Below the pieces are notes generated by a model. That model did not search any database. It was not told the DNA's origin and was given only the letters and a program-made list of their open reading frames with translations. A DNA stretch of 64,000 nt from a virus. Lineage: Duplodnaviria > Heunggongvirae > Uroviricota > Caudoviricetes. The translations under genes were made by a program, and so were the position numbers. This document shows positions 8,341 to 44,761 of the stretch, in pieces; position 1 is the stretch's first letter; the number at the start of each line of letters is the position of its first letter. Location of the stretch: the IMG/VR virus record IMGVR_UViG_3300009551_000042, one strand, 5' to 3'.

Positions 8341-8616
8341 GCTACCATCGGTGTCCCGTGCACGGGCTGGCCCCGTGCGACTGCCGATGGGCTCTAGTGC
8401 CGAAACGCTGACGTCGACAATACTCGCTGATGTGAGTTTGATTCGCCCGCGAACTTTCGCTGACATCTTTCTTGCTTCTGTTCTTATCCCTGGGCTGTTC
8501 GCTTGGACGGCCCTTAAGGGACTCTTGCTCCACGTGACCGACCGGCGTCGGTGATGGGCTGTAACCCCGTTCCGCTTTGCGCGGCAGTTAGGTTCGACTC
8601 CTAAGTGGTGCACTAT

Positions 8617-8691
8617 GCGGCTGTATCTCAATTGGCAGAGGCCCGGCTTTTAACCGGTGCGACGTCGGTTCGAACCCGGCCAGCCGCACCA
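8617..8691 (+). tRNA. tRNA-Lys(TTT)
   Basis: 7-bp acceptor gcggctg/cagccgc, T-arm gtcgg-ttcgaac-ccggc, loop cttttaa, CCA encoded. Confidence 0.65.
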
Positions 8692-8695
8692 CAAT

Positions 8696-8769
8696 GCGTG
8701 TGTAGCACAGAGGTAGTGCAGTCGGCTCTTAACCGATCGGATCGCGTTCGACTCGCGACGCACGCACCA
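8696..8769 (+). tRNA. tRNA-Lys(CTT)
   Basis: Acceptor gcgtgtg/cgcacgc, D gcac/gtgc, AC gtcgg-ctcttaa-ccgat, T tcgcg-ttcgact-cgcga, CCA encoded. Confidence 0.7.
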
Positions 8770-8816
8770 TCCCCCACGGTTCGCCCGTGGGCTGCCTGGG
8801 GCAACCAGGCTTCTAT

Positions 8817-8888
8817 TCCGGGATCGTCTAACTGGTAGGACTAGGGATTCTGAATCCCTCAACGCTGGATCGTACCCAGCTCTCGGAT
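8817..8888 (+). tRNA. tRNA-Gln(CTG)
   Basis: U1:A72 acceptor tccggga/tctcgga, AC aggga-ttctgaa-tccct, T gctgg-atcgtac-ccagc (A54 T-loop). Confidence 0.6.
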
Positions 8889-8904
8889 CTCTTTGACAAT
8901 CTAT

Positions 8905-8989
8905 TCCAGGATGGGTGAGCGGCAAGCCACTCGGCTGTTAACCGAGCGCAGAAATGCAATCGTTGGTTCGAATCCAACTCCTGGAGCCA
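8905..8989 (+). tRNA. type II (long variable arm) tRNA whose anticodon loop reads GTT
   Basis: Acceptor tccagga/tcctgga, G73, CCA encoded; AC ctcgg-ctgttaa-ccgag; variable hairpin gca-gaaa-tgc; T gttgg-ttcgaat-ccaac. Confidence 0.5.
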
Positions 8990-8991
8990 TT

Positions 8992-9063
8992 GCCGGTCTA
9001 GCACTCGGGGAGTGCACCTCATTTGTAACGAGGAGTAGATGGGTTCGAATCCCTTGATCGGCT
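8992..9063 (+). tRNA. tRNA-Thr(TGT)
   Basis: Acceptor gccggtc/gatcggc, D gcac/gtgc, AC loop ttgtaa with A31-C39 mismatch, T atggg-ttcgaat-ccctt. Confidence 0.55.
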
Positions 9064-9150
9064 CTAGGGTGCCTGTTGGTGTGGCGTACCCGTTAACTGA
9101 AGTAACCCAACGCTCGCTGGCAGACCGAGCAAACCCGTCCGCTCATTCAT

Positions 9151-9221
9151 GGCGCATGTACTGCTGGTGCGGTAGTCGGCTTTTCACACCGACCCGCCGG
9201 GATCGTAACCCGGATGCGTCA
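9151..9221 (+). tRNA. tRNA, probable Glu(TTC) with expanded anticodon loop (C31-A39 mismatch)
   Basis: Acceptor ggcgcat/atgcgtc, T ccggg-atcgtaa-cccgg; AC stem gtcgg/ccgac with 9-nt loop cttttcaca. Confidence 0.4.
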
Positions 9222-9310
9222 CTACCCGGAGCGGCAACCGGGCATCAAAGTGTCGCGCGCAGGCTTCGAGACATTTGGCCCGGGCTGGTTCTCTCGATTG
9301 TAGCGCGTTA

Positions 9311-9383
9311 GGGTCGTTAGCAAATCTGGTGATTGCCGTGCGTTGAAGCCGCACAGAGGCCGGTTCGAATCCGGCGCGACCCA
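9311..9383 (+). tRNA. tRNA-Phe(GAA)
   Basis: Acceptor gggtcgt/gcgaccc, D gcaa/ttgc, AC gtgcg-ttgaagc-cgcac, T gccgg-ttcgaat-ccggc. Confidence 0.75.
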
Positions 9384-9473
9384 CTTGTGCGGAGTTGGCT
9401 CCGTTGGCGACGGGGGAAGGCCTGTGACCTGGGGTGAGAGGACCCTTTTGACTGCCAGGAAAGACTGGCTCTG

Positions 9474-9546
9474 CGAGCTGAAGTCCGTTGGACGGACACG
9501 TGTCTTGGGCACACGATGTATGAGAGTTCGATTCTCTCCAGCTCGA
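9474..9546 (+). tRNA. tRNA-Pro(TGG)
   Basis: C1:G72 acceptor cgagctg/cagctcg, D gtcc/ggac, AC cgtgt-cttgggc-acacg, T gagag-ttcgatt-ctctc. Confidence 0.7.
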
Positions 9547-9551
9547 CGACT

Positions 9552-9626
9552 GGGGTGTGGCCCGGGTTTGGGCAAGGGCGGCTGTGACCCGCTTTTAACG
9601 GAGTTCGACTCTCCGGCATCCCTCCA
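9552..9626 (+). tRNA. tRNA, probable His(GTG)
   Basis: Acceptor ggggtgt/gcatccc, T cggag-ttcgact-ctccg, CCA encoded; AC ggcgg-ctgtgac-ccgct; D-arm irregular. Confidence 0.45.
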
Positions 9627-10186
9627 TGGACAGGGAGAAAAGCAAACGCCTGAGCTATGTGCTGAGGCACCACCCAGAAAGCGCCGGGCTTACGCTTGAC
9701 GTTGCTGGTTGGGCTGACGTGCATCGCCTTATGGCGAACATGGGGTTTAACCCGACCGAACTGTCTCACGAAGTGCTTACGAATTCAAAGCAGCGCTTCG
9801 AGTTCAGTGATGATGGGATGCGCATTCGCGCCTGTCAAGGTCACAGTGTGGATGTAGACCTGGGGCTACGCGAGCAGCAGCCGCCCATAGTGCTTTTCCA
9901 CGGTACGTGCGAAGACTCACTTCCTGGAATTCGGGAAGAGGGCATCAAAGCGATGTCCCGTAGACAGGTGCACCTGTCGACCGACCGCGAGACGGCTCAG
10001 CAGGTCGGGGCTCGTCACGGTGCGCCAGTCGTCTTGAGCGTTCAGTCATTGCTGATGTGCGTTGAGGGCTACCGCTTCTATCTCTCGACCAACGGAGTCT
10101 GGCTTACGGATTCCGTACCATCAAAGTTCATCAACTTCGGGCCGCGCCGACAGCCCTCGGGTATTCCCGAAAACCCGGCGCCCTAA
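9626..10186 (+). CDS. kptA: RNA 2'-phosphotransferase (Tpt1/KptA family)
   Basis: KRLSYVLRHHPE, IRACQGHSVDVDL, VLFHGTCEDSL, RRQVHLS motifs; start ATG overlaps the CCA end of the preceding tRNA. Confidence 0.8.
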   Translation: MDREKSKRLSYVLRHHPESAGLTLDVAGWADVHRLMANMGFNPTELSHEVLTNSKQRFEFSDDGMRIRACQGHSVDVDLGLREQQPPIVLFHGTCEDSLPGIREEGIKAMSRRQVHLSTDRETAQQVGARHGAPVVLSVQSLLMCVEGYRFYLSTNGVWLTDSVPSKFINFGPRRQPSGIPENPAP

Positions 10187-10188
10187 AT

Positions 10189-10259
10189 GCTACCGGACGC
10201 GATTGGATCGCGAACCCGCTGTCTACGGGTTGAAGAGGGTTCGATTCCCTTCGGTAGCG
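10189..10259 (+). tRNA. tRNA-Asp(GTC)
   Basis: Acceptor gctaccg/cggtagc, D cgcg/cgcg, AC acccg-ctgtcta-cgggt, T gaggg-ttcgatt-ccctt. Confidence 0.7.
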
Positions 10260-10330
10260 CCCGCTGGTGACACAGCAGACCGCTACCCGTCGGCACACGG
10301 GTTGATAGGCGTAACGGGTACGCCGCTCAT

Positions 10331-10398
10331 GAGTCCGAGTGCAGGGCACAACGAAGCCTCCAAAACTTCGGAACTAGGTTCGATTCCTAGCGGGCTCG
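10331..10398 (+). tRNA. tRNA, probable Trp(CCA); compact D-arm, C31-A39 mismatch
   Basis: Acceptor gagtccg/cgggctc, T ctagg-ttcgatt-cctag; AC stem cgaag/cttcg with inner loop ctccaaa; 68 nt. Confidence 0.4.
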
Positions 10399-10557
10399 CT
10401 ACATGTCGAGATCAAGGCATGACAGCAAGCGTCGTGGTGGCCGTGAATATTGGTCGCGTCGCTACACGCCAACAGCGCTCTCCTGGGGAACGTATGGCAA
10501 ACGTTTGACGCATCGCTTCGAGCGGCAGCAAGCCAAACGAATCATTCTCGAACAATC

Positions 10558-10630
10558 GGGGCACTGACGAAGGCGTCGGAACATCCTTGCAAGATGTCTC
10601 CAGAGGGAGCGTTACCCTCGTGCTCCACCA
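10558..10630 (+). tRNA. tRNA-Ala(TGC)
   Basis: Acceptor ggggcac/gtgctcc with G3-U70, AC acatc-cttgcaa-gatgt, T gaggg-agcgtta-ccctc (non-canonical T-loop), CCA encoded. Confidence 0.6.
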
Positions 10631-10730
10631 GTCGCCAGTTAGCTGATAAATCACTGGCAAGCAGGGACAAGGGTTACCGGTTTACTAGACCCTCCTGCGA
10701 ACTCGATTGCAACGAGCAAACCGGAACAAT

Positions 10731-10799
10731 GCTGGTTCGTCTTGGAGACCGCTCTGCATGGTAAGCAGGCCGGAACGGGATCGAAACCCGTAACCAGCT
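10731..10799 (+). tRNA. tRNA-Thr(GGT)
   Basis: Acceptor gctggtt/aaccagc, AC tctgc-atggtaa-gcagg, T acggg-atcgaaa-cccgt; tiny D-loop. Confidence 0.45.
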
Positions 10800-10978
10800 C
10801 GGGCATTCCCAGGATCGGGGAGTTTGAAAGTCGGCACGCCTGCCGGCGCTTAGCAACTTAAACGCGGGTTGTGGTGACATGTGGCGCGCCGGTCGCTCCG
10901 GCAATGACAATCACATGCAGGCCGGTTTGCTGTCCGGTCGCAATCCACCAAAGCGGACTAGTCACTAAAACAGCATCT

Positions 10979-11053
10979 GCGCGTGAGGTGTACTTGGCTG
11001 CATCTCTGTCTTCCAAACAGAAGGACTCGGATCATTCCCGAGCACGCGCACCA
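10979..11053 (+). tRNA. tRNA-Gly(TCC)
   Basis: Acceptor gcgcgtg/cacgcgc, AC tctgt-cttccaa-acaga, T ctcgg-atcattc-ccgag, CCA encoded. Confidence 0.65.
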
Positions 11054-11054
11054 C

Positions 11055-11128
11055 GCAGTCAATGAGTTACGGTAGCTCGTCGCATTGCCAATGCGGAGGC
11101 CCGGGATCATCACCCGGTGACTGCACCA
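11055..11128 (+). tRNA. tRNA-Gly(GCC)
   Basis: Acceptor gcagtca/tgactgc, D gagt/gctc, AC tcgca-ttgccaa-tgcgg, T ccggg-atcatca-cccgg, CCA encoded. Confidence 0.7.
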
Positions 11129-11129
11129 C

Positions 11130-11198
11130 GACCCGCAGCCCAGGGGGCTAGCAGCGCTGCAAACGCAGCTCGGGGCGGATCGATACCGCCGCGGGTCT
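11130..11198 (+). tRNA. tRNA-like, anticodon unresolved
   Basis: Acceptor gacccgc/gcgggtc and T ggcgg-atcgata-ccgcc are clean; the central region folds as a tetraloop hairpin (gctgc-aaac-gcagc) instead of a 7-nt anticodon loop. Confidence 0.35.
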
Positions 11199-11203
11199 CA
11201 AGC

Positions 11204-11271
11204 GCCCCCGCCGATGGACGGCACCGCGTCTTCTAAACGCACGTGAGCAGGCTCGATCCCTGCCGGGGGCA
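11204..11271 (+). tRNA. tRNA-Arg(TCT)
   Basis: Acceptor gcccccg/cgggggc, AC gcgt-cttctaa-acgc, T gcagg-ctcgatc-cctgc; truncated D-arm, 68 nt. Confidence 0.45.
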
Positions 11272-11275
11272 CTAT

Positions 11276-11347
11276 GCCGCGCTCGACTTCAGGTGAGGTC
11301 GTAGGTTTCTCAAACCTACCAGACGGGATCGTTACCCGTGCGCGGTG
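11276..11347 (+). tRNA. tRNA-Glu(CTC)
   Basis: Acceptor gccgcgc/gcgcggt, D gact/ggtc, AC taggt-ttctcaa-accta, T acggg-atcgtta-cccgt. Confidence 0.7.
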
Positions 11348-11385
11348 CCGATGAAACCAGGCACCACACCGATCGGTTAAATCAT

Positions 11386-11454
11386 ACCCCGGCCCGAGGA
11401 TGGGCCGTGACGCTACGAACGTTACTGGACAGGGTTCGAGTCCCTGACGGGGTA
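11386..11454 (+). tRNA. tRNA-Arg(ACG)
   Basis: AC tgacg-ctacgaa-cgtta, D ggcc/ggcc, T caggg-ttcgagt-ccctg; acceptor has a G7-A66 mismatch or a 1-nt offset. Confidence 0.5.
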
Positions 11455-11512
11455 CCTATGTCGGGCGAGTGAAACGGTTCACGTCAGCCTCATAAGCTGA
11501 AAACACCCAGGT

Positions 11513-12478
11513 TCAATTCCAGGGGCCCGACTCCAAAATCTTCTCCGCGTACGCTTGCCCAATGAGGCAATCCGCGGCGCCAGTCCTATGGATCATGTCA
11601 GCGCCAAACGCTGACCCGTAGGAGTCGATCGCGTGACCAGGTGACGCGATCGACGTCTGCACGGCGCGCACAGCATCCATGCTGGCCTTCTTGTATCGCG
11701 GCGACCAAGTGATCACGATGTACGGATCCAGCGGCTGTTTCGCGACGCCTTCGAACGCCGCCCGCAACGCAGCGAGCCGTCCGGGCCAGGCTGCGGTAAC
11801 CTCGGGGTCGCCGAGCTTCGCTTCGTTCTCGCCTTGATCCCAGACCCAGCGGAAATCAAACGCAGTACCGGACGGGAACTCTTTGGCGAGCAGCGAAACC
11901 GCCAGCTCGAATTTCTTGACGTAAGGAACGCCGGGACCAGTCGGATCCCACTGGCTGATGTACGTGCCGCCGTGCGTGATCTTGATCACGGCAACGCGAC
12001 GGCCGGCAGCCTGCAAGGCCTTTGCTGCGCATAGCTCATGTGACAGCGTGCCGTCGAACGCAGGAGCAACTGACAGGAACGCTTCCTGCTGGAGCGCCTT
12101 TGCCTTGCCGAAGCTGAACTGGAACTCCGGAATTGTTGCGTCCGGAACGCCTCCCGGTACCGAGTCCGTCGACATTCCCTCCGCGTTGCTCTGACCAGCA
12201 ACGAACAGCACGATGACTGGAAGCTCTGGGCCTGCACCAGCTTCGCCTCCAGTGGCTAACGCACCCGCTTCGCCTCCGGCGCCTGCTGCTCCGGCCTCGA
12301 CGCTCGCAGCCTGTCCCGCTTCGCCACCGATGGTCGCTTGCTCAACAACGGCAGGAGCGCCGGCCCCTGATTCGTGGGCCCCCGCCTCGTCGCACAGTGT
12401 GGCCTGATTCGACTCAGTAGGCACCGCTGACGAGCAAGCCACCACCATTCCCACTACAAGCATAGCCATGTGTTTCAT
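11513..12478 (-). CDS. secreted lipoprotein, SASA-type SGNH carbohydrate esterase (sialate O-acetylesterase-like)
   Basis: Signal/lipobox MKHMAMLVVGMVVAC, Ala/Gly-rich linker, then VAGQSNAEG (GQSNMxG-type motif). Only minus-strand gene inside the plus-strand tRNA array. Confidence 0.6.
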   Translation of the reverse strand: MKHMAMLVVGMVVACSSAVPTESNQATLCDEAGAHESGAGAPAVVEQATIGGEAGQAASVEAGAAGAGGEAGALATGGEAGAGPELPVIVLFVAGQSNAEGMSTDSVPGGVPDATIPEFQFSFGKAKALQQEAFLSVAPAFDGTLSHELCAAKALQAAGRRVAVIKITHGGTYISQWDPTGPGVPYVKKFELAVSLLAKEFPSGTAFDFRWVWDQGENEAKLGDPEVTAAWPGRLAALRAAFEGVAKQPLDPYIVITWSPRYKKASMDAVRAVQTSIASPGHAIDSYGSAFGADMIHRTGAADCLIGQAYAEKILESGPWN

Positions 12479-12517
12479 CTATGCGCATGGATATCGTCCA
12501 TATTTATTACCGTCAAG

Positions 12518-12589
12518 CGTGCGCGGCTGAGGTAGCAGCGAAGGCTCATATCCTTTAGCTTTTGGGTTCGAATCCCAGGCGCACGACCA
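12518..12589 (+). tRNA. tRNA-Met/Ile(CAT)
   Basis: C1:G72 acceptor cgtgcgc/gcgcacg, AC gaagg-ctcatat-ccttt, T ttggg-ttcgaat-cccag, CCA encoded; no initiator G-C triplet. Confidence 0.55.
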
Positions 12590-12660
12590 CCAGGAGGCGC
12601 GAATGATGCCTATTCGCTGGCGAGGACTTTAGCGGACCCCGAACTATCGGAGGTTTCGCA

Positions 12661-12735
12661 TGTGCAAGTATTGCAAGCTTGCGATCCAGCTCGGCGGCAA
12701 GATGTGCCGCCCATGCTGGCGTCGGAAGCGTTGAA
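12661..12735 (+). CDS. 24-aa zinc-ribbon micro-ORF (MCKYCKLAIQLGGKMCRPCWRRKR)
   Basis: GGAGG RBS 8 nt upstream, CxxC-N9-CxxC; a second AGGAGG-ATG micro-ORF (MMPIRWRGL) lies at 12603-12632. Confidence 0.3.
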
Positions 12736-12812
12736 CTGACACTCGCAGAGGCGAACGCCTGCTGCGCAAAAATGGAGAGCCGCGCGCCAAGCGTCTGAAC
12801 AGCGGCAACTAT

Positions 12813-12884
12813 TCCAGGTTCGTCTAACGGGTAGGACGCAGGATTTTGGTTCCTGCTATCGGGGTTCGAATCCTCGCCCTGGAA
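12813..12884 (+). tRNA. tRNA-Gln(TTG)
   Basis: U1:A72 acceptor tccaggt/ccctgga (7:66 mismatch), D gtct/ggac, AC cagga-ttttggt-tcctg, T cgggg-ttcgaat-cctcg. Confidence 0.55.
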
Positions 12885-12888
12885 CAAC

Positions 12889-12963
12889 GGCACGCGAGTC
12901 CAGCTGGTGAAGGCGGCGCACTTACAATGCGTTCTCGCATGGGTTCGATTCCCTGGCGTGTCA
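12889..12963 (+). tRNA. tRNA-Val(TAC)
   Basis: Acceptor ggcacgc/gcgtgtc, AC gcgca-cttacaa-tgcgt, T-stem with 1-nt bulge around ggg-ttcgatt-ccc. Confidence 0.5.
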
Positions 12964-12969
12964 CCCCGA

Positions 12970-13041
12970 GCGCGTTCGGTTGGGTAGCCTAGCCGGCCTT
13001 ATGAGCGGTGAGAGCTGGTTCGACTCCAGCAGCGCGCACCA
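12970..13041 (+). tRNA. tRNA, anticodon unresolved (expanded 8-10-nt loop ccttatga)
   Basis: Acceptor gcgcgtt/agcgcgc, T gctgg-ttcgact-ccagc, CCA encoded; no clean 5-7-5 anticodon hairpin. Confidence 0.4.
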
Positions 13042-13042
13042 T

Positions 13043-13116
13043 GCACCTGAGTCCACCTGGTTGGTGGAAACGATCTGATACGTCGTACGCGGTGAGTTCG
13101 ATTCTCACGAGGTGCA
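13043..13116 (+). tRNA. tRNA-Ile(GAT)
   Basis: D tcca/tgga, AC acgat-ctgatac-gtcgt, T gtgag-ttcgatt-ctcac; acceptor gcacctg/gaggtgc with 7:66 mismatch. Confidence 0.6.
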
Positions 13117-13152
13117 CCCGTCTGCGGGAGGACGTTAAACAGTCCCGTCAAT

Positions 13153-13226
13153 CCTGACGTAGCCCAATTGGCCGAGGCAACCGTCTTAGAAACGGACAGA
13201 TGTGGGTTCGAGTCCCTCCGTCAGGA
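13153..13226 (+). tRNA. type I tRNA whose anticodon loop reads TAG (Leu CUA codon) but lacks a long variable arm
   Basis: C1:G72 acceptor cctgacg/cgtcagg, AC accgt-cttagaa-acgga, 5-nt variable loop, T gtggg-ttcgagt-ccctc. Confidence 0.45.
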
Positions 13227-13241
13227 CTAGTAGCGACTAAC

Positions 13242-13326
13242 GCAAGCGTGGTGGAACAGGCAGACGCAGCGGCTTCAAACCCCGCCGGGCTATCAGCCCA
13301 TGCGAGTTCGACTCTCGCCGCTTGCA
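13242..13326 (+). tRNA. type II tRNA (85 nt); anticodon loop cttcaaa (TCA) or alternative register CAA
   Basis: Acceptor gcaagcg/cgcttgc, T gcgag-ttcgact-ctcgc; anticodon stem imperfect (gg/cc then mismatch). Confidence 0.45.
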
Positions 13327-13332
13327 CAGACC

Positions 13333-13857
13333 ATGAGACGCCGAAGAGCAAACCAACCCGGTCGCAAAACGCTGGTTCTTAGCGCAAGCTACGTGCCCGT
13401 CCGCATTATCTCATGGCGCGACGCAATCAAGATGCGTTGCGAGGACACGGCCGATGTGGTGGCGGAGTACCGCGAGACGGTTAGCTCACCGTCGGTAACG
13501 TGGCGCATTCCGGCCGTGATCCGCGAGCGGCAATTTCACAAGGGCCGCGCTGGTGTCAGGTTTAGTCCGCTGAATGTCTTCAGGCGCGACGGCTACCGCT
13601 GTCAGTATTGCGGCGACAGATTCCCGCCCGACAAGCTCGAATGCGAACACGTTGTCCCGAAGAGCAAGGGCGGGAAGCGCAACTGGGAAAACATCGTTGC
13701 GGCATGCCGCACATGCAACGCCAGAAAGCGCGATAGGAGCTGCGAGGAGATCGGCATGTTCCCGTTGGCCAAACCAGTGCGGCCCAAGTCGCTTCCTGTC
13801 GACAGGCTCGAGGTGCCGCACGAGCGAGCGCCTGAAGAATGGCTCGCGTATTTGTGA
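13333..13857 (+). CDS. HNH endonuclease
   Basis: CQYCG...HVVPKSKGG...N...ACRTCNARK HNH motif; ATG chosen right after the tRNA 3' end (longer 13300 start would overlap the tRNA). Confidence 0.7.
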   Translation: MRRRRANQPGRKTLVLSASYVPVRIISWRDAIKMRCEDTADVVAEYRETVSSPSVTWRIPAVIRERQFHKGRAGVRFSPLNVFRRDGYRCQYCGDRFPPDKLECEHVVPKSKGGKRNWENIVAACRTCNARKRDRSCEEIGMFPLAKPVRPKSLPVDRLEVPHERAPEEWLAYL

Positions 13858-13862
13858 TTTCT

Positions 13863-13945
13863 GGAAAGTAAACCCTGAGTGGTCGGGGAGCCGGTTTGAA
13901 CCCGGTGGCACCGCAAGGTGAGGCGTTCGACTCGTCTGCTTTCCT
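13863..13945 (+). tRNA. tRNA-Ser(TGA), type II
   Basis: Acceptor ggaaagt/gctttcc, AC gccgg-tttgaac-ccggt, variable hairpin cacc-gcaa-ggtg, T aggcg-ttcgact-cgtct. Confidence 0.6.
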
Positions 13946-13951
13946 CAAACT

Positions 13952-14037
13952 GGAGAGTAAACCGGCAAGGCTGGCCGGGCTTGCTTGCTAAGCAATGTCG
14001 CACCGTAAGGTGTGGGCTTCGATTGCTCTGCTCTCCG
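13952..14037 (+). tRNA. tRNA-Ser(GCT), type II
   Basis: Acceptor ggagagt/gctctcc with G73, AC ttgc-ttgctaa-gcaa, variable hairpin cacc-gtaa-ggtg, T tgggc-ttcgatt-gctct. Confidence 0.6.
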
Positions 14038-14045
14038 CAAAATTC

Positions 14046-14113
14046 GCCCGCGCGCTTCGGAAGCATCGTGCATTCGTATCGCACCTAACCCGGTTCGACT
14101 CCGGGCGTGGGCT
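14046..14113 (+). tRNA. tRNA, possibly Thr(CGT) (A31-C39 mismatch, compact D-arm)
   Basis: Acceptor gcccgcg/cgtgggc, T cccgg-ttcgact-ccggg, AC gtgc-(a)ttcgtat(c)-gcac. Confidence 0.35.
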
Positions 14114-14802: not shown

Positions 14803-14834
14803 CAGTCCCCCCAGCGGCAGAGGTCGACAACCGC

Positions 14835-15221: not shown

Positions 15222-15241
15222 AGATTTCGGAGAGGGAGAGA

Positions 15242-17469: not shown

Positions 17470-18468
17470 TTATGCCCGGAGCTGGCTAGAGCTGATATCC
17501 CAGCGCCCCTCAAGGGGCTCCAGGTTGTAGATGACACCGGATTCCGGAACCGCCGCGATAGCCTCTTCGGCGCTGACCCAGCGCCCGTTGACCTCGCGTC
17601 CAACAATCTTCAAGGTCGTGTCATTGTCGGCGAGCTTGCGTAGGAGGTCCATCGGGTCAGGACCCCACTTCGGGTCGAGCATCCGAAGGAAGGCGTCTGC
17701 ACCGATGACGATTGCACGACGCGGAAACGCATTGGACTTATCCAGATAGAGCGGCATACCCGACGTGAACAGACGGTCTCTGCGGTGCAGCATCTTGGCT
17801 CGCTGCACCATCTCAGCCAGCGCTAGCGGTGGCTTGTGCGGCGTGGTCGCTTCGATCCAGTGAATCGCGTTGACCGATTCGGCGATAGCCAGGTGTCCCT
17901 GATGCGGCGGATTGAAGGCACCTGGGTATAGCGCGCGATGCGCTGGTGGTGTGGCGTGGCGTGTACCATCGGCTGCCCAGTAGGAGCGACCTAGAAAGAG
18001 ACTAAGCGCGTGTCCCGTGACCTCACCGGACAGAGGGCGCCCGCGATCGAGTAGCATCTTGATCACTGAGTCCGCATGCCGTCCCTGCCACTCGCGAGCC
18101 TTTGCGCCGTGCTCATTCTCGTAGCCGTAGTGGTACGCCCTGACGCCCTCCGCCGTCATCAGGGCAACATGGATGCGGTTCTCGCCCTTGCGCGGCTTAG
18201 CGCTCGCCACAGCGCCGCTGAGCCCTACCCCAACCGCGTCAGTCCCGGGCTGCCATGCGCGATAGTAGGCCATCATCGCCATCTCGATCGATGTATCCTC
18301 ACAGCACGCTCGCTCCGGCGCGAAGCCTAAAAAGTCCTCTAGCTGATCGTGACCGTACGGGAAGCAGGCCCCGGCGAAGTAGGCGGAGCAGCCGGGCACA
18401 CGCCAAATGTCGGCCTGTGCTCCGGCTCCTGCACCCGTTGCCGCAATGTAGATGCGGCGCTTACTCAC
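17470..18468 (-). CDS. nicotinamide-nucleotide adenylyltransferase (NMNAT, C-terminal HxGH nucleotidyltransferase domain) with N-terminal domain of unknown function
   Basis: GAFNPPHQGHL (H/T)xGH motif in C-terminal half; 4-nt overlap with the NAMPT gene. Confidence 0.65.
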   Translation of the reverse strand: MSKRRIYIAATGAGAGAQADIWRVPGCSAYFAGACFPYGHDQLEDFLGFAPERACCEDTSIEMAMMAYYRAWQPGTDAVGVGLSGAVASAKPRKGENRIHVALMTAEGVRAYHYGYENEHGAKAREWQGRHADSVIKMLLDRGRPLSGEVTGHALSLFLGRSYWAADGTRHATPPAHRALYPGAFNPPHQGHLAIAESVNAIHWIEATTPHKPPLALAEMVQRAKMLHRRDRLFTSGMPLYLDKSNAFPRRAIVIGADAFLRMLDPKWGPDPMDLLRKLADNDTTLKIVGREVNGRWVSAEEAIAAVPESGVIYNLEPLEGRWDISSSQLRA

Positions 18469-19862
18469 GCTGCCAAGCTCCTGTCCGCGTTGGCGCGAAC
18501 CTCGTCGAGGGTGAACGTGCGCTTGAGTTCGCCGTTTTCGAAGACGGTCTGCAACTCATCTCGCAGCTGGGTCGGTTGCTGAACTGTCGTATAAGCACCG
18601 GTCTGCGCGTTGCGCACGAGAGACAAGCGGCCCCATTTGCTTCGCTTCCCCGGGTCCGTGACAGGGTCCTTAGCGATCGGACGCGATACGCCGTTGACCG
18701 TTACCTCGCTCGGCTTGAACGCAAACTTCTGCGTGTCGCGGTCGACCTTCTGTAGCAACGCGCCGCCCATACCGAACGCGATGTTTGACGCACTGTAGCC
18801 ATTGGCCTTCATGACGAGGAGGATCTCAGTGATGGAGTCGTGATTGACGCCGTCGCCCTGGATCACGCGGAGCCACTTCGGGAGCAGCTTGTAGCCGCGC
18901 ATGTTCATCGGCGCGCCGACCTTGCGCTCCAGGATCTGAAGCGTCTTCAGCACGACGTCCGGCGGGTGACCCGAGTCCGGGCGAACCACGAGAGTGGCGC
19001 CGCTGCGCTCGATGTCCTCGCGAAGCTCACCGCCCCACACGTTCTCCAGCACGTTCCACAGGTCGTAACTGTCCGAGACGCACGCGAACAGAGAGCCAGG
19101 CTTGGCGAACTGTTTGACGACGTTGCGGTATGCATCGAGCTCGCCGTCTCGTCCCCAGCTGATGATCGTGCTGTGCTCGGTCGCCGGGATCGAGAACGCC
19201 GGCATGCCGTTAGCGGTGCCGTAGAAGCGGCGCGCTGCCAGAATGCCTTCCACTGTGTCTGAGCCCTGGAAGTTCACCAGGTGCGCCATGCCGCCAAGCT
19301 CGGCGGATTCCGCGCTCGACACTCCGCGGGCCCCGAAGTCGTGAAGCTTGAACGGCAGCTCGGCCAAGGGCGCGTCGCTGGTCTCGTTCAGGTATTCCAG
19401 GATCGTCCGCTTGATGTAGTGCGATTGCGTGGCAACCGTGGTCGGATACCAAATCGCGCGCAGCAGAACGGTCTCGAGGTACGAGGGGAGCCAGAAGAAC
19501 TCTGGATCCGTCGACTCGACGGACATCAGGATGTTGTGCGTCGGAACGACGGTGCCCTCGGCTACCGCCTTGATGCGCAGCGGCAGCGTCCCGCCGTGCT
19601 TATCAACGAGACGCAACCAAGCCGCACGGTCGAACGGCTCACCGTGCGCCGCGAAGAACTCTGCAGCCTCCCGAACGTCGTCGACAGTTAGAACGGCGCC
19701 GCTGAGGTACGCCTTTAGGAAGGCCTGGAGACCGAAGAAAACAGTCGATCCGTACTTGCCGCCGCGACTCTCCAGGTAGCTGTAAAGCCCCGTGGTCCCC
19801 GGCGGGAACAGACCGATGTGTGATGGCTTGTATGAATCAGTAGCTAGACACAGATTGCGCAT
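18465..19862 (-). CDS. nadV: nicotinamide phosphoribosyltransferase (NAMPT/NadV)
   Basis: 465 aa; characteristic type II phosphoribosyltransferase blocks (GYRGVSS-like, DSGHPPDVV). Confidence 0.8.
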   Translation of the reverse strand: MRNLCLATDSYKPSHIGLFPPGTTGLYSYLESRGGKYGSTVFFGLQAFLKAYLSGAVLTVDDVREAAEFFAAHGEPFDRAAWLRLVDKHGGTLPLRIKAVAEGTVVPTHNILMSVESTDPEFFWLPSYLETVLLRAIWYPTTVATQSHYIKRTILEYLNETSDAPLAELPFKLHDFGARGVSSAESAELGGMAHLVNFQGSDTVEGILAARRFYGTANGMPAFSIPATEHSTIISWGRDGELDAYRNVVKQFAKPGSLFACVSDSYDLWNVLENVWGGELREDIERSGATLVVRPDSGHPPDVVLKTLQILERKVGAPMNMRGYKLLPKWLRVIQGDGVNHDSITEILLVMKANGYSASNIAFGMGGALLQKVDRDTQKFAFKPSEVTVNGVSRPIAKDPVTDPGKRSKWGRLSLVRNAQTGAYTTVQQPTQLRDELQTVFENGELKRTFTLDEVRANADRSLAA

Positions 19863-20370
19863 GCCCCGGTGTTAAAGCCGGGGCAGCGTTCATCACTAGA
19901 ACAGGCGCCGCGTCTTGCTCAAGCGCGCTACGCAAGATCTCGACATGATCGAAAGCCAGTCTCCCGGGTTCGAACAGGTCGCCTGTCATCTCCACCCATT
20001 CAGCTGCGGCAGCGTCGTCACCGGCTTTGATGATGATCGGGCCCTCGTAGTCATCGAGCGAAGCCACGAAAGCCACGCTCACGACCCAGCCACGCGGATC
20101 CCTTCCGGGCGTCGTGAACGCCCGGACCTGTACGAGAGAAGCGGCGCGGTGGTAGACGTCATTGACGACAAGGCGTAGCCCGGTCTCTTCCTCCAGCTCC
20201 CGCTGGGCCGCCTCCTCCGCGCTCTCACCCTCGTTCACGTAGCCGCCAGGCAGCGCCCACATGCCCTTGAACGGCTCGTCGCGGCGCTTGATGAGCAGCA
20301 CGCGCGAGCCGTCCAAGACCACGCAATCGACAGTCAGCGCCGGGCGCGGATAGTCGTAGGTATGCTTCAC
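19837..20370 (-). CDS. NUDIX hydrolase
   Basis: Nudix box GGYVNEGESAEEAAQRELEEETGL. Confidence 0.75.
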   Translation of the reverse strand: MKHTYDYPRPALTVDCVVLDGSRVLLIKRRDEPFKGMWALPGGYVNEGESAEEAAQRELEEETGLRLVVNDVYHRAASLVQVRAFTTPGRDPRGWVVSVAFVASLDDYEGPIIIKAGDDAAAAEWVEMTGDLFEPGRLAFDHVEILRSALEQDAAPVLVMNAAPALTPGHAQSVSSY

Positions 20371-25676: not shown

Positions 25677-25690
25677 TCAAAACCTCCGGG

Positions 25691-30509: not shown

Positions 30510-30627
30510 TAGCCAAACGAGGCCACAACTAAAACAAGACTACGGCACGAGCCGGAAGCTGGTGGGTTATCAATTGTAAACTGATGCCAACCCCACCGGC
30601 GCCACCTTTGTTCGTGCCAACTTTTAC

Positions 30628-35981: not shown

Positions 35982-36782
35982 ATGCGCCTCGCTTGGCTCA
36001 CTGATATTCACCTAGACCACCTCAAACCTCGACGCGAAGCGCGTCGGGCATTCGCGGAACTCGTCGCCAATTCCGCGGACGCTTGTGTGATTACCGGCGA
36101 CTGTTCCAGCGCTACAGAAGCCCATCTACTCGGCGATTTCGCGGACGATAACGGTAAACCCGTCTACTTCGTCCTAGGGAATCACGACTACTGGGGCAGC
36201 TCATTCGGCGGCGCCGAGGAGCACGTGCGTAAGCTTTGTGCTGCGCGTTCCAACCTGCATTGGCTGACTGAATCAGGTCCAATTGACATCGCTCCCGGCG
36301 TTCAGCTGTGCGGTGTTGACGGTTGGTACGACGCCGAATTCGGCAACTGGCGATCCAGCGACTTCATCATGGTTGATTGGAAAAAGATCACCGACTTGCG
36401 GAAGATTTTCCAAGTAATGGCAGGCGAACACCTCGTCAAAGCCTGCCGCGAGCGTGCGCAAATGTTCGCCATCAAGGCACGGGAACAGCTCTCGAAGGCG
36501 ACCGCAAAGCGCGTGTTCTTCGCAACGCATATGCCACCGTTCGAGCAGTCAGCCATGCATGAGGGGCGCCCCTCTACGCCTCAAGCTCTACCTTGGTACA
36601 CCTCACGCGCGATGGGTTACGCGCTCATGATTCACGCCGACAAACACCGCGACCAGGAATTCACGACGCTTTGCGGCCACGTTCATTCGGCATCTGAGTA
36701 CATCGAAGGGCCGAACCACACCGTCCTTTGTGGCGCGGCTGAGTACGGTAGGCCGGAGATTGTGAGGGTTTTCGACCTATGA
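35982..36782 (+). CDS. calcineurin-like metallophosphoesterase
   Basis: DIHLDH, ITGDCSSA, GNHDYW, GHVH blocks. Confidence 0.7.
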   Translation: MRLAWLTDIHLDHLKPRREARRAFAELVANSADACVITGDCSSATEAHLLGDFADDNGKPVYFVLGNHDYWGSSFGGAEEHVRKLCAARSNLHWLTESGPIDIAPGVQLCGVDGWYDAEFGNWRSSDFIMVDWKKITDLRKIFQVMAGEHLVKACRERAQMFAIKAREQLSKATAKRVFFATHMPPFEQSAMHEGRPSTPQALPWYTSRAMGYALMIHADKHRDQEFTTLCGHVHSASEYIEGPNHTVLCGAAEYGRPEIVRVFDL

Positions 36783-43798: not shown

Positions 43799-44220
43799 GC
43801 ATTGAAGCAGTCAAGGAAGCCACGGCGAAGCTCAACAAGGCGCGTGAGGAACTGCGCGCAGTCGCCAAGAGCGCACGAGAGCCAATCGCAAAGATGTTCC
43901 AAGAGATCCTCGAACGTCACACCGACGTGAATTGTGTGACTTGGACGCAGTACGCGCCCCACTTCAATGATGGCGACGCCTGCATCTTTCATGTTCACGG
44001 GTTCTGTATTCTCCCGGCCAACGAAGAGCCGCGCAGCAATCAACCGGACTACGATTTTGAAGGCCAACCAGACGGCGTGAGTGAGGAAGCTTACGAGGAA
44101 CTGAGCAGCGCGTTCAGCAACATTGATAACGAAGACTTGCTCAAAGCCGTTTTCGGCGCTGACGCGAAGATCATCATCACGCGCGACGATTGCGAGGTCG
44201 ACTACTGTGACCACGACTGA
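43795..44220 (+). CDS. hypothetical protein (paralog 2, WTQYAPHFNDGDAC)
   Basis: ATGA coupling. Confidence 0.55.
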   Translation: MSIEAVKEATAKLNKAREELRAVAKSAREPIAKMFQEILERHTDVNCVTWTQYAPHFNDGDACIFHVHGFCILPANEEPRSNQPDYDFEGQPDGVSEEAYEELSSAFSNIDNEDLLKAVFGADAKIIITRDDCEVDYCDHD

Positions 44221-44761
44221 AATCCTCCTCGACTGCGACGGCGTTCTAGGCCAGTTCGCCCCGGAGGCCGTCGACTTCTGCAATCTCTACGGCCGTGAGC
44301 CCGGCGCAAAACCCTGGACGATCGACGACGTCACCAACTGGGATATCCTCAAAAACTTCGGCTTGGAACACCTGCAAGATCGACTCGATCAGCACATGAT
44401 CGACACCGACTTTTGCAGGCACATGCCGCTGTATCCAGGCGCTCAGGAATTCGTGGAAGCGCTGCGCGGATTGGGCAACGTGACGATCGTTACGAGCCCT
44501 TACACGGCGGTCCCTAATTGGTGCAGCGCGCGCTATGCCTGGCTCGCGGAACACTTCAACATCGACAAGCGCGATGTGATTTTCGCTAAGAAGAAGTGGA
44601 AAGTCTGGGGCGACTACCTGATCGACGATCAGACCGAGAACTGTATCCAGTTCGAGGCGAAGGCGCCCTACGGATCACCGCTCTGTCTAGCCCGGCCCTG
44701 GAATGAAGACTTCATCGGGCGCTGTTCAAGCTTCGAAGAGATCATCTACGAGATCAGTTGA
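44207..44761 (+). CDS. HAD-superfamily 5'(3')-deoxyribonucleotidase-like
   Basis: Motif I ILLDCDGVL; GTG start proposed. Confidence 0.6.
   Translation: MTTTEILLDCDGVLGQFAPEAVDFCNLYGREPGAKPWTIDDVTNWDILKNFGLEHLQDRLDQHMIDTDFCRHMPLYPGAQEFVEALRGLGNVTIVTSPYTAVPNWCSARYAWLAEHFNIDKRDVIFAKKKWKVWGDYLIDDQTENCIQFEAKAPYGSPLCLARPWNEDFIGRCSSFEEIIYEIS

What the first reader, a model, noticed from the sequence alone, without database searches (positions are those of the whole stretch)
9626..10186. Tpt1/KptA RNA 2'-phosphotransferase embedded in the tRNA array, with an Rnl2-like RNA ligase at 45039-46058
Tpt1 removes the 2'-phosphate left at tRNA splice or repair junctions. Its start codon overlaps the CCA end of the preceding tRNA, so it is co-transcribed with the tRNAs. 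An Rnl2-type ligase elsewhere in the genome is also present. Together with the large tRNA complement, tmRNA and Ro60/Y RNA this forms an RNA repair and replacement toolkit, plausibly a counter-defence against host anticodon nucleases (PrrC/RloC/VapC/retron-type). No Pnkp or RtcB was seen in this window, so the end-healing step may use a different or unrecognised enzyme. The two metallophosphoesterases (35982, 53945) are candidates.
Basis: partly seen in the sequence, partly recalled or inferred. Interest (0 to 1): 0.7.

Follow-up and report, generated by a model that had tools for sequence, protein, structure and literature searches.

The report
Phage Tpt1 gene inside tRNA array
An uncultured soil phage carries an intact RNA 2'-phosphotransferase (Tpt1/KptA) gene wedged, without spacers, between two tRNA genes; the gene class is already known from phages, and its link to an RNA ligase 35 kb away is not supported by gene context.

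Summary
ORF 9626-10186 (+) is a full-length Tpt1/KptA with the Arg-His-Arg-Arg tetrad intact (R14, H15, R57, R112). Its ATG shares one base with the 3' end of an ARAGORN-called tRNA-His, and its stop codon lies one base before tRNA-Asp.

Two corrections apply. The tRNA-His is aberrant: Rfam's tRNA model does not detect it. The ligase at 45039-46058 is Rnl5-type (DraRnl/NgrRnl: N-terminal OB fold, C-terminal nucleotidyltransferase), not Rnl2-type.

The "repair toolkit" reading is only partly supported:
- No Pnkp, RtcB, 2H, Macro or polynucleotide kinase was found in the window.
- The two metallophosphoesterases are generic.
- The ligase sits in the replication module, in a neighbourhood conserved in a related phage contig.
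- The only relative found with the homologous tRNA array (L017) lacks both Tpt1 and tRNA-Asp.
- None of 14 other Tpt1 loci examined has tRNAs nearby.
- The array also holds unrelated cargo (an esterase and an HNH endonuclease).

A better-supported partner is the phage NAD+ salvage set (NAMPT, NMNAT-like, Nudix) 7-10 kb downstream. Phage KptA is already catalogued (PHROG 5470) and already proposed for NAD+-dependent tRNA repair. Verdict: a new member of a known kind in an unusual position; modest interest.

The parts
8527..14112 (+). tRNA array: 21 tRNAs called by ARAGORN plus at least 5 further tRNA-like elements. It lies between tail-fibre-like genes and a lysis-like cassette and is interrupted by Tpt1, a minus-strand SASA-type esterase (11513-12478) and an HNH endonuclease (13300-13857).
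   Evidence: ARAGORN; Rfam; homology to the L017 array; reading of 13947-14112; Pfam for the esterase and HNH
9474..9547 (+). tRNA-Pro (tgg), 4 nt upstream of the tRNA-His-like element
   Evidence: ARAGORN; Rfam tRNA model 46.2 bits
9552..9626 (+). tRNA-His (gtg)-like element. It is non-canonical; its last base is the A of the Tpt1 ATG.
   Evidence: ARAGORN. No Rfam tRNA hit at E<=10. The MFE fold is a cloverleaf with a 1-nt connector, a 4-nt D loop and an 8-bp anticodon stem. The L017 ortholog scores 33.5 bits.
9626..10186 (+). Tpt1/KptA RNA 2'-phosphotransferase, 186 aa, with tetrad R14-H15-R57-R112
   Evidence: GC3 0.66 and GC 57.8%, similar to the rest of the phage.
10188..10262 (+). tRNA-Asp (gtc), starting 1 nt after the Tpt1 stop codon. 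It is absent from the L017 array.
   Evidence: ARAGORN; Rfam tRNA clan, 31 bits; L017 tRNA list
10331..10398 (+). tRNA-Trp (cca)-like element missed by ARAGORN. It is the counterpart of L017 tRNA-Trp and marks the downstream edge of the Tpt1 + tRNA-Asp segment.
   Evidence: Rfam tRNA 26.6 bits; anticodon loop read from the sequence; L017 tRNA-Trp
17470..18468 (-). NMNAT-like protein (cytidylyltransferase-like C-terminal half); a weak assignment
   Evidence: Pfam PF01467 E 8.9e-5; NCBIfam TIGR00482 E 7e-5
18465..19862 (-). NAMPT/NadV-type nicotinamide phosphoribosyltransferase. It would recycle the nicotinamide that Tpt1 releases.
   Evidence: NCBIfam NF006629, 611.6 bits against a cut-off of 405; Pfam NAMPT_N + NAPRTase
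19837..20370 (-). Nudix hydrolase resembling the Nudix half of bifunctional NMNAT/Nudix enzymes
   Evidence: Pfam NUDIX 1.2e-22; NCBIfam NF003788 1.1e-24, aligned to model positions 209-346
35982..36782 (+). Calcineurin-type metallophosphoesterase, generic. One small ORF (36779-36982) separates it from a YAcAr/SLOG gene at 36979-37419.
   Evidence: Pfam; PHROG 1649; no PDB relative; YAcAr assignment
44123..44761 (+). NT5C-type HAD phosphatase carrying the motif DCDGV, two genes upstream of the ligase. The neighbourhood is conserved in L008.
   Evidence: Pfam PF06941 5.2e-17; PDB 5'(3')-deoxyribonucleotidases; L008 gene table
45039..46058 (+). Rnl5-type ATP-dependent RNA ligase: N-terminal OB fold plus C-terminal nucleotidyltransferase. 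Motif I lysine is K160, motif III E228, motif IIIa F249-D250, motif IV E305-G306, motif V K326.
53945..54946 (-). Second metallophosphoesterase, generic
   Evidence: Pfam; PHROG 221; no PDB relative

Best explanation
The ORF encodes an intact, very probably active NAD+-dependent RNA 2'-phosphotransferase. This phage lineage acquired it from bacteria independently of the known phage Tpt1 genes. It sits as variable cargo, together with tRNA-Asp, in a plastic tRNA array.

Because no spacer separates it from the tRNAs on either side, it is most likely transcribed as part of the tRNA precursor. Its mRNA would then be either the unprocessed precursor or a fragment with almost no untranslated regions, released by tRNA end-processing (inferred).

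[quoted passage not shown] The phage's own NAMPT, NMNAT-like and Nudix genes would regenerate NAD+ from those products (inferred).

Its most likely use is to clean 2'-phosphorylated RNA, probably tRNA, that arises during infection (inferred, not shown). The Rnl5 ligase 35 kb away is a separate gene of the replication and nucleotide-metabolism module. It is not a demonstrated partner.
For: Identity and active site. The mutational basis of the tetrad is in PMC6097658.

Independent bacterial origin: the closest non-self homologs are 51-60% identical, and the named ones are bacterial (Kitasatospora, Blastococcus, Geodermatophilus, Planctomycetaceae and others). Known phage Tpt1 proteins are 41-44% identical, and one IMG/VR contig is 51%.

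Variable cargo: L017 carries the same tRNA order (Tyr-Lys-Lys-Gln-Asn-Thr...Phe-Pro-His, then Trp...Gly-Glu-Met-Gln-Val...Leu-Leu-HNH) with 70-92% identical segments. It has only a 177-nt spacer where Tpt1 + tRNA-Asp sit here. Eight other contigs with a homolog of the 2151-2699 protein (48-79% identical) have no tRNA within the DNA retrieved downstream of it (0.1-10 kb).

Co-transcription: same strand, gaps of -1 and +1 nt, and no + strand promoter- or terminator-like site between tRNA-His and tRNA-Asp. A second gene (ATG at 14116) also starts 3-4 nt after a tRNA-like element.

NAD+ salvage.

Ligase independence.
Against: - No activity or expression data exist. This is a single uncultured phage population with an unknown host.
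- No source of RNA 2'-phosphate was identified in the window: no 2H or other cyclic phosphodiesterase, no kinase, and no Trl1-type ligase.
- The closest characterised enzyme, Runella Tpt1, does not remove terminal 2'/3'-phosphates (PMC6573784). That argues against a simple end-healing role if the property carries over.
- NAD+ salvage genes are common in large phages for other reasons, such as countering NAD+ depletion. Their presence is therefore not specific evidence.
- Only 64 kb of a contig of at least 112 kb was examined, so partner enzymes could lie outside the window.
- The flanking tRNA-His may be a degenerate tRNA.
Confidence: 0.55

Rival explanations
1. Tpt1, the RNA ligase and a phosphoesterase form one heal-and-seal tRNA repair pathway that restores tRNAs cut by host anticodon nucleases. 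A phosphoesterase opens the 2',3'-cyclic phosphate. Then either the ligase seals the break and Tpt1 removes the junction 2'-phosphate, or Tpt1 removes a terminal 2'-phosphate before sealing.
For: Both enzymes are intact. The genome is rich in translation-rescue elements: at least 21 tRNAs, a tmRNA, and Ro60 with Y-like RNAs. Some Tpt1 enzymes do remove terminal 2'/3'-phosphates (PMC6573784). The model is already proposed for phage KptA (PMC9503650, PMC7824862). An NT5C-type HAD phosphatase lies two genes upstream of the ligase.
Against: - No 5'-kinase, 2H/cyclic phosphodiesterase, Pnkp or RtcB is present in the window.
- Rnl5 ligases seal nicks in duplexes, not single-stranded loops (PMC1807946, PMC4408790).
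- The two genes are 35 kb apart, in different modules.
- The ligase neighbourhood is conserved in L008, while no ortholog-level Tpt1 appears on the long contigs of ligase relatives.
- Tpt1 is absent from the homologous array in L017.
- The metallophosphoesterases match only generic families.
Confidence: 0.15
2. Tpt1 acts here through a non-canonical reaction of the family, as part of the phage's NAD+/ADP-ribose metabolism rather than junction repair. Candidate reactions are ADP-ribose capping of 5'-phosphate RNA or DNA ends, removal of terminal phosphates, or action on a non-nucleic-acid phospho-substrate.
For: The family has these side activities (PMC6573784). The window holds NAMPT, an NMNAT-like protein, a Nudix hydrolase, and a YAcAr/SLOG protein one small ORF away from a metallophosphoesterase. 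These domains are grouped with NAD+/ADP-ribose processing in PMC9503650.
Against: The closest characterised homolog, Runella Tpt1, lacks both 5' capping and terminal phosphate removal. None of these genes is adjacent to Tpt1. The placement among tRNAs is not explained.
Confidence: 0.15
3. Passenger gene. Tpt1 was inserted into the tRNA array because such arrays are insertion hot spots. Its position says nothing about its substrate, and it may give little or no benefit.
For: The same array carries a carbohydrate esterase on the opposite strand and an HNH endonuclease. L017 lacks Tpt1. None of the 14 other Tpt1 loci examined (5 phage or viral contigs and 9 metagenome contigs, one of which is the same contig as L004) has a tRNA in the retrieved flanks. 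Those flanks are 6 kb for the phage loci, but only a few hundred bases to 4 kb on the short metagenome contigs.
Against: The ORF is intact, full length, keeps all four catalytic residues, and has phage-like GC3. This argues that selection maintains it. The exact abutment to tRNAs on both sides implies that it depends on the array's transcription.
Confidence: 0.15

Closest known systems
Phage-encoded KptA/Tpt1 (PHROG 5470), for example in Dickeya phage AD1, Erwinia and Klebsiella jumbo phages, and C. difficile phage phiCD211
   Same: Same protein family (PHROG 5470, E 1.7e-56). 98 phage records carry a homolog, and those listed that are annotated mostly call it RNA 2'-phosphotransferase. A role in NAD+-dependent tRNA repair has been proposed (PMC9503650).
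   Different: Identity to those phage proteins is only 41-44%, lower than to bacterial Tpt1 (51-60%). In the phages checked, the gene has no tRNA within 6 kb. Here it abuts tRNAs on both sides.
Runella slithyformis Tpt1 (RslTpt1), which I take to be PDB entry 7kw8/7kw9
   Same: Best match among solved structures (E 2.9e-51, residues 6-170 aligned to 8-177). All four essential residues are conserved. [quoted passage not shown]
   Different: RslTpt1 is bacterial. No repair-gene cluster surrounds the phage gene. The attribution of 7kw8 to Runella rests on my own knowledge and on the matching residue numbering, because the tool output names only the molecule.
Rnl5 nick-sealing RNA ligases (Deinococcus radiodurans DraRnl, Naegleria gruberi NgrRnl)
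   Same: The architecture is an N-terminal OB fold plus a C-terminal nucleotidyltransferase. The full-length fold matches NgrRnl at TM 0.78-0.79, the profile E-value is 1e-30, and the motif residues are conserved.
   Different: About 21% identity to NgrRnl. The score is below the TIGR02306 equivalog cut-off (104 against 151 bits). The residue at the NgrRnl D172 position is Glu here and is variable in this clade. Substrate preference is untested.
Phage T4 Pnkp + Rnl1 repair of tRNA-Lys cut by PrrC
   Same: The concept is the same: a phage counters anticodon nucleases by repairing tRNA (described in PMC6097658).
   Different: T4 uses a kinase-phosphatase and a loop-specific ligase, and leaves no 2'-phosphate. 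No Pnkp or Rnl1 was found here.
Fungal and plant tRNA splicing: Trl1 (ligase + kinase + cyclic phosphodiesterase) followed by Tpt1
   Same: This is the only established pathway that creates the canonical Tpt1 substrate, a 2'-PO4 at a 3'-5' junction (PMC6097658, PMC10946426).
   Different: No Trl1-type ligase, kinase or cyclic phosphodiesterase domain was found in the window. The ligase present belongs to another family.
Phage NAD+ salvage (NAMPT plus NMNAT/Nudix, as described for jumbo phages)
   Same: NAMPT scores above its equivalog cut-off. A Nudix of the NMNAT-Nudix type and an NMNAT-like protein are clustered with it, matching the description in PMC7824862.
   Different: Here the NMNAT-like and Nudix parts are separate ORFs, and the NMNAT assignment is weak (E about 1e-4).

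Membership tests
Tpt1/KptA RNA 2'-phosphotransferase (PF01885) | Sequence match above the curated Pfam threshold over the whole domain | tested here: met
   145.9 bits against a cut-off of 26; residues 4-162 cover profile positions 5-176 of 177
Tpt1/KptA RNA 2'-phosphotransferase (PF01885) | Arg-His-Arg-Arg catalytic tetrad | tested here: met
   R14, H15, R57 and R112 align with R16, H17, R64 and R119 of the 7kw8 chain. These residues are essential according to PMC6097658.
Tpt1/KptA RNA 2'-phosphotransferase (PF01885) | Score above the NCBIfam equivalog cut-off | tested here: not met
   Best model NF002014: 213 bits against a cut-off of 239. This means a divergent member of that sub-model. It does not mean a failure of the family signature.
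Tpt1/KptA RNA 2'-phosphotransferase (PF01885) | NAD+-dependent removal of an internal RNA 2'-phosphate | not testable with these tools
   Needs a biochemical assay or yeast tpt1-delta complementation
Rnl2-type RNA ligase (T4 Rnl2) | N-terminal nucleotidyltransferase domain followed by the Rnl2 C-terminal domain | tested here: not met
   The nucleotidyltransferase domain occupies residues 154-328 and is preceded by an OB domain at residues 10-86. T4 Rnl2 matches only the nucleotidyltransferase part: TM 0.46 and E 6e-9 over profile positions 152-289.
Rnl5-type RNA ligase (DraRnl/NgrRnl) | N-terminal OB module plus C-terminal adenylyltransferase, as a full-length fold match | tested here: met
   PF21189 + PF09414. 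AF2 model with pLDDT 90.9. NgrRnl matches at TM 0.78-0.79, E 4e-21. The profile against NgrRnl gives E 1e-30 over positions 12-307 aligned to 14-324.
Rnl5-type RNA ligase (DraRnl/NgrRnl) | Nucleotidyltransferase motifs I, III, IIIa, IV and V | tested here: met
   K160 and G163, E228, D250, E305-G306, R322 and K326 are invariant in 35 homologs. Motifs I, III, IIIa and IV align to NgrRnl K170, E227, FD and E312. Motif V lies outside the printed alignment, so it is assigned by conservation only.
Rnl5-type RNA ligase (DraRnl/NgrRnl) | Score above the TIGR02306 equivalog cut-off | tested here: not met
   104.1 bits against a cut-off of 151.15, though the alignment covers 11-334 to model positions 8-340 of 341
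Rnl5-type RNA ligase (DraRnl/NgrRnl) | Seals 3'-OH/5'-PO4 nicks in duplexes whose 3'-OH strand is RNA | not testable with these tools
   Needs a ligation assay
Phage heal-and-seal tRNA repair system (T4 type or KptA-centred type) | A 5'-OH polynucleotide kinase | tested here: not met
   No kinase family appeared in the Pfam scans. Among plausible genes, Walker A motifs occur only in the AAA_24 protein, one helicase and the primase (two further hits fall in unassigned overlapping ORFs). Only the window was scanned.
Phage heal-and-seal tRNA repair system (T4 type or KptA-centred type) | An enzyme that resolves 2',3'-cyclic phosphate (2H, cREC, HD, Pnkp phosphatase) or an RtcB ligase | tested here: not met
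   None was found in the Pfam, NCBIfam or PHROG scans. The two metallophosphoesterases and the NT5C/HAD protein are untested candidates. Relative L008 has a cREC gene two genes upstream of its YAcAr gene, where the window has a metallophosphoesterase one small ORF upstream.
Phage heal-and-seal tRNA repair system (T4 type or KptA-centred type) | Gene-neighbourhood linkage of the components | tested here: not met
   Tpt1 starts at 9626 and the ligase at 45039. They lie in different modules, and the ligase neighbourhood is conserved without Tpt1.
Canonical bacterial-type tRNA (for the element at 9552-9626) | Match to the Rfam tRNA covariance model | tested here: not met
   No RF00005 hit at E<=10. 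The only hit is 12.4 bits on the tRNA-Sec model. The L017 ortholog scores 33.5 bits.

The most novel reading that the evidence does not exclude
Tpt1 is a dedicated phage counter-defence enzyme whose substrates are phosphorylated tRNAs. These could be 2'-phosphate junctions or terminal 2'/3'-phosphates left after host nuclease attack. They could even be phosphate groups that host toxins add to tRNA ends, as with the toxSAS/CapRel-type pyrophosphorylation of the CCA end (10.1101/2021.04.30.441581, PMC9712102). In this reading, its mRNA is cut out of the tRNA precursor by the tRNA-processing enzymes as an essentially UTR-less message. Enzyme and replacement tRNAs would then be made together from one transcript.
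Probability: 0.08. Interest if true: 0.75.

Novelty: new member of a known kind. Interest (0 to 1): 0.3.

Why it matters
What Tpt1 does in bacteria and phages that lack yeast-type tRNA splicing is an open question (PMC6097658, PMC6573784). A Tpt1 gene packed without spacers into a tRNA operon hints that tRNA is the substrate. It is also a compact example of a protein gene punctuated by tRNAs.

The hint is weak. There is one genome, the closest relative lacks the gene, and unrelated genes share the array. The phage is uncultured and its host is unknown, so the finding does not make the question directly testable. The practical value lies in corrected annotation: an Rnl5 ligase rather than Rnl2, NAD+ salvage genes as the likelier functional context, and an aberrant tRNA-His.

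Tried and rejected
- Megablast of 8400-11400 against cultured phages gave no match. The structural protein 2151-2699 also has no phage hit, and the primase has only distant ones. No cultured relative and no host clue emerged.
- The genome-contig scan for prophage relatives returned only two MAG contigs (Reyranella, Saccharibacteria) at 48-51% identity. These are uninformative about the host.
- IMG/VR scans with the 768-aa and 231-aa proteins next to the array found nothing.
- I looked for a conserved Tpt1-tRNA association and found none. The loci checked were 5 phage or viral contigs (L004-L007, L031) and 9 metagenome contigs (L018-L026; L019 is the same contig as L004).
- I looked for the array in contigs that carry a homolog of the structural protein 2151-2699. 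Only L017, of 9 such contigs, has it.
- I considered leaderless translation as a distinctive feature because Tpt1 has no Shine-Dalgarno sequence. I rejected it as uninformative: only 19 of 49 genes in the window have any SD-like 4-mer.
- I considered the three genes after the array (14116-15808) as hidden repair enzymes. They have no family hits and no kinase motif. One has a transmembrane segment and coiled coils, so the set looks like a lysis cassette.
- I tested the metallophosphoesterases for similarity to Pnkp or other solved phosphoesterases. There are no PDB relatives.
- The GS linkers I used to concatenate ORFs for Pfam produced spurious 'Serglycin' hits, which I ignored.
- My first greedy ORF selection missed the + strand genes at 42818-44761. 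I rescanned them.
Full report
**What is at the coordinates**

The window is 59.8% G+C. Window positions 1 to about 20,200 match (6 mismatches) the part I could fetch of a 112-kb metagenome contig; by coordinates the window should be its last 64 kb. Two shorter assemblies of the same population end about 100 nt after the gene in question.

ORF 9626-10186 (+) encodes 186 aa from an ATG, and no in-frame start lies upstream of it. It matches the following:
- Pfam PTS_2-RNA (PF01885) at E 1.8e-42 over almost the whole profile.
- PHROG 5470 'RNA 2'-phosphotransferase' at E 1.7e-56.
- NCBIfam RNA 2'-phosphotransferase models. The best scores 213 bits, below its equivalog cut-off of 239.

The best solved relative is chain 7kw8_A (E 2.9e-51, residues 6-170 aligned to 8-177). 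I take this to be Runella slithyformis Tpt1 from the residue numbering and from memory. Clostridium thermocellum Tpt1 (6e3a/6ede) follows. In that alignment R16, H17, R64 and R119, which are essential in RslTpt1 (PMC6097658), correspond to R14, H15, R57 and R112.

**The tRNA context**

ARAGORN tRNAs on the + strand between 8527 and 13946, and a tmRNA at 25689-26079 (-). tRNA-His (gtg) is placed at 9552-9626 and tRNA-Asp (gtc) at 10188-10262. The A of the ATG is therefore the last base of ...TCCA, and the TAA stop is one base before tRNA-Asp.

The consensus scan finds no + strand promoter- or terminator-like site between tRNA-His and tRNA-Asp. Its overall counts do not exceed those from shuffled sequence. 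Co-transcription is thus the simplest reading, but it remains an inference.

One caveat concerns the tRNA-His:
- It is not seen by Rfam's tRNA model even at E<=10 in a 121-nt search.
- Its minimum-energy fold is a cloverleaf with a 1-nt connector, a 4-nt D loop, an 8-bp anticodon stem and a 2-nt variable region.
- Its counterpart in the related contig L017 scores 33.5 bits and, by my reading of the sequence, has the canonical G-1:C73 pair.

The array is also larger than ARAGORN reports:
- A tRNA-Trp-like element lies at 10331-10398.
- Further tRNA-like hits lie at 11460-11531 and 12970-13038.
- A segment at 11121-11199 is about 85% identical to L017 tRNA-Cys.
- Ser(gct)-like and Arg(tcg)-like elements lie between 13947 and 14112. 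The Arg-like element ends 3-4 nt before the ATG at 14116 of the next gene.

Tight abutment of ORFs to tRNAs is thus a general habit of this region.

**Is the association conserved?**

The closest Tpt1 homologs, apart from the identical copies, are only 51-60% identical. Where they carry names, they are bacterial. Phage Tpt1 proteins in cultured phages are 41-44% identical (98 records), and one IMG/VR contig is 51%.

I examined the flanks of 14 other Tpt1 loci:
- Dickeya AD1, phiCD211, Klebsiella FBKp24, Bacillus C30-3 and the IMG/VR contig.
- Nine metagenome loci (one the same contig as the IMG/VR locus, several under 2 kb long).

ARAGORN finds no tRNA in any of them.

I then used the conserved structural protein 2151-2699 as an anchor. 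I fetched nine contigs that carry a homolog of it (48-79% identical); two of them yielded under 1.5 kb of DNA downstream of the anchor. Eight have no tRNA in the DNA retrieved downstream of the anchor. One, L017 (74% identical anchor), has a 22-tRNA array with the same gene order and 70-92% identical segments. In L017, tRNA-His is followed by a 177-nt spacer and then tRNA-Trp. There is no Tpt1 (tblastn negative) and no tRNA-Asp.

Tpt1 + tRNA-Asp is therefore a lineage-specific insertion, or a loss in L017. The array also holds a minus-strand SASA-type esterase and an HNH endonuclease. This shows that it accepts unrelated cargo, which weakens guilt by association.

**The ligase**

ORF 45039-46058 has the PHA02142 OB-fold domain (residues 10-86) followed by the RNA_ligase nucleotidyltransferase domain (residues 154-328). 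It aligns end to end with TIGR02306 'RNA_lig_DRB0094', though below the cut-off.

- An AlphaFold model built on 35 homologs has pLDDT 90.9.
- Its best PDB matches are all Naegleria gruberi RNA ligase, at TM 0.78-0.79 and E about 4e-21. T4 Rnl2 matches only the nucleotidyltransferase domain, at TM 0.46.
- A profile search gives NgrRnl E 1e-30 against Rnl2 6e-9. It aligns motif I (TEKIEG to VKLDG, K160 to K170), motif III (GE, E228 to E227), motif IIIa (FD) and motif IV (EG, E305 to E312).
- K326 is invariant in the family alignment.

The adenylylation motifs are therefore all present, but the enzyme belongs to Rnl5, not Rnl2. Rnl5 enzymes seal 3'-OH/5'-PO4 nicks in duplexes whose 3'-OH strand is RNA. 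Their physiological role is uncharted and has been linked to radiation resistance in Deinococcus (PMC1807946, PMC4408790, PMC5397189).

The gene lies downstream of sigma-factor, DUF6915 and NT5C/HAD genes and upstream of helicase, SPFH/Band 7, VRR-NUC and VapE-primase genes. The order NT5C - small ORF - ligase - helicase - VRR-NUC - primase recurs in relative L008, whose ligase is 65% identical. None of the top 120 Tpt1 homologs sits on the 87-116-kb contigs that carry these ligase relatives. An orthologous Tpt1 in those phages is therefore unlikely, though this is an inference.

**Other pathway parts**

I ran Pfam on the ORFs I selected, about 108, nearly all of at least 50 aa. This included a second pass for + strand genes that my first selection missed.

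- No RtcB, Pnkp, 2H/LigT, Macro, HD or cREC family appeared.
- Among plausible genes, Walker A motifs occur only in the AAA_24 protein, one helicase and the primase; two further hits fall in unassigned overlapping ORFs.
- The metallophosphoesterases match generic phage families (PHROG 1649 and 221) and no solved structure.
- The first metallophosphoesterase lies one small ORF upstream of a YAcAr/SLOG protein (36979-37419), which is 48% identical to the L008 protein annotated PF10686. In L008 a cREC gene lies two genes upstream of its YAcAr gene.

**NAD+ salvage**

On the minus strand, 7-10 kb downstream of Tpt1, three genes form an NAD+ salvage set:
- an NMNAT-like protein (weak assignment);
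- a NAMPT (NF006629, 611 bits against a cut-off of 405);
- a Nudix of the NMNAT-Nudix type.

Tpt1 consumes NAD+ and releases nicotinamide, so this set is a plausible support. It is not specific evidence.

**Comparison with what is known**

Phage KptA is a recognised family. Its proposed role in NAD+-dependent repair of cleaved tRNAs has been laid out for jumbo and medium-sized phages, together with RNA ligases, 2H, Ro/TROVE, many tRNAs and NAD+ salvage (PMC9503650, PMC7824862).

The canonical Tpt1 substrate arises only from Trl1-type ligation. Some Tpt1 enzymes also remove terminal 2'/3'-phosphates or cap 5'-phosphates, but Runella Tpt1, the closest characterised relative here, does neither (PMC6573784).

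**Verdict**

Its placement flush between tRNAs is unusual among the Tpt1 loci I could examine. However, the gene class and the interpretation are already in the literature, the ligase was mis-typed, and comparative context argues against a coordinated Tpt1-ligase-phosphoesterase toolkit. I rate it a new member of a known kind, with interest 0.3.

Noticed in passing
window 30543-30618 (+) and 30691-30837 (+): Two Y-RNA-like elements lie directly after the Ro60/Rsr gene (28878-30509). The first scores 37.5 bits on RF01656 (gathering score 38). RF01656 is a nematode sRNA family that, from my own knowledge, is a stem-bulge RNA related to Y RNAs. The aligned helix reads GGUGGGUUAUCA...CCCACC. The second scores 18 bits on Y_RNA, with a weak tRNA-like hit inside it (30695-30759), which is reminiscent of YrlA.
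   Followed up: partly
window 17470-20370 (-): An NAD+ salvage cluster: an NMNAT-like protein, a NAMPT (above its equivalog cut-off), and a Nudix of the NMNAT-Nudix type.
   Followed up: partly
window 9552-9626 (+): The tRNA-His called by ARAGORN is structurally aberrant and invisible to Rfam's tRNA model. Its ortholog in L017 (12805-12878) is canonical. It may be a degenerate or unusual tRNA.
   Followed up: partly
window 10331-10398, 11121-11199, 11460-11531, 12970-13038, 13947-14112 (+): Additional tRNA-like elements that ARAGORN did not call: Trp(cca)-like, Cys-like by homology to L017, and Ser(gct)-like and Arg(tcg)-like by reading the sequence. The array holds at least 26 elements rather than 21.
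   Followed up: partly
window 10603-10658 (+) / L017 13178-13232: This 56-nt segment is 91% identical between the two phages, more conserved than most of the aligned tRNA segments (70-85%). In L017 it overlaps a weak tRNA-like hit (13131-13202, 28.2 bits). Its nature is unknown.
   Followed up: no
window 14116-15808 (+): The three genes after the array have no family hits. The third has a transmembrane segment and coiled coils, so the set looks like a lysis cassette. The first gene's ATG (14116) lies 3-4 nt after a tRNA-like 3' end, a second case of a gene abutting a tRNA.
   Followed up: partly
window 11513-12478 (-) and 13300-13857 (+): A SASA-type carbohydrate esterase on the opposite strand and an HNH endonuclease interrupt the tRNA array. 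The predicted HNH start overlaps tRNA-Leu (caa) by 28 nt.
   Followed up: no
window 35982-37419 (+) versus L008 2521-3571: A metallophosphoesterase lies one small ORF upstream of a YAcAr/SLOG gene; in relative L008 a cREC gene lies two genes upstream of its YAcAr gene. This may be an exchangeable ADP-ribose or cyclic-phosphate processing pair.
   Followed up: partly
window 18465-19862 (-), 22098-23000 (-), 59177-59620 (+): Perfect G+C-rich hairpins (6-8 bp stems, 6-8 nt loops) end 0-1 nt before the start codons of these genes. An example is GCCCCGGCTTTAACACCGGGGC followed by ATG. This may be a recurring signal for transcript processing or for initiation.
   Followed up: no
window 8905-8989 (+): tRNA-Asn is 85 nt long, against 77 nt in L017. 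That is unusually long for a class I tRNA.
   Followed up: no
window, about position 10290: Two of the three public assemblies of this phage (Logan SRR6056499 and JGI 3300025924) end about 100 nt after the Tpt1 gene. This may reflect population heterogeneity or repeats in the array.
   Followed up: no
window 41719-42387 (+); L008 7095-8650: The window has one phage-encoded sigma-70-family protein, and relative L008 has three in a row. No DNA polymerase and no DNA ligase was detected in the window, despite the presence of DnaN, SSB, a 5'-3' exonuclease, helicases and a primase.
   Followed up: no
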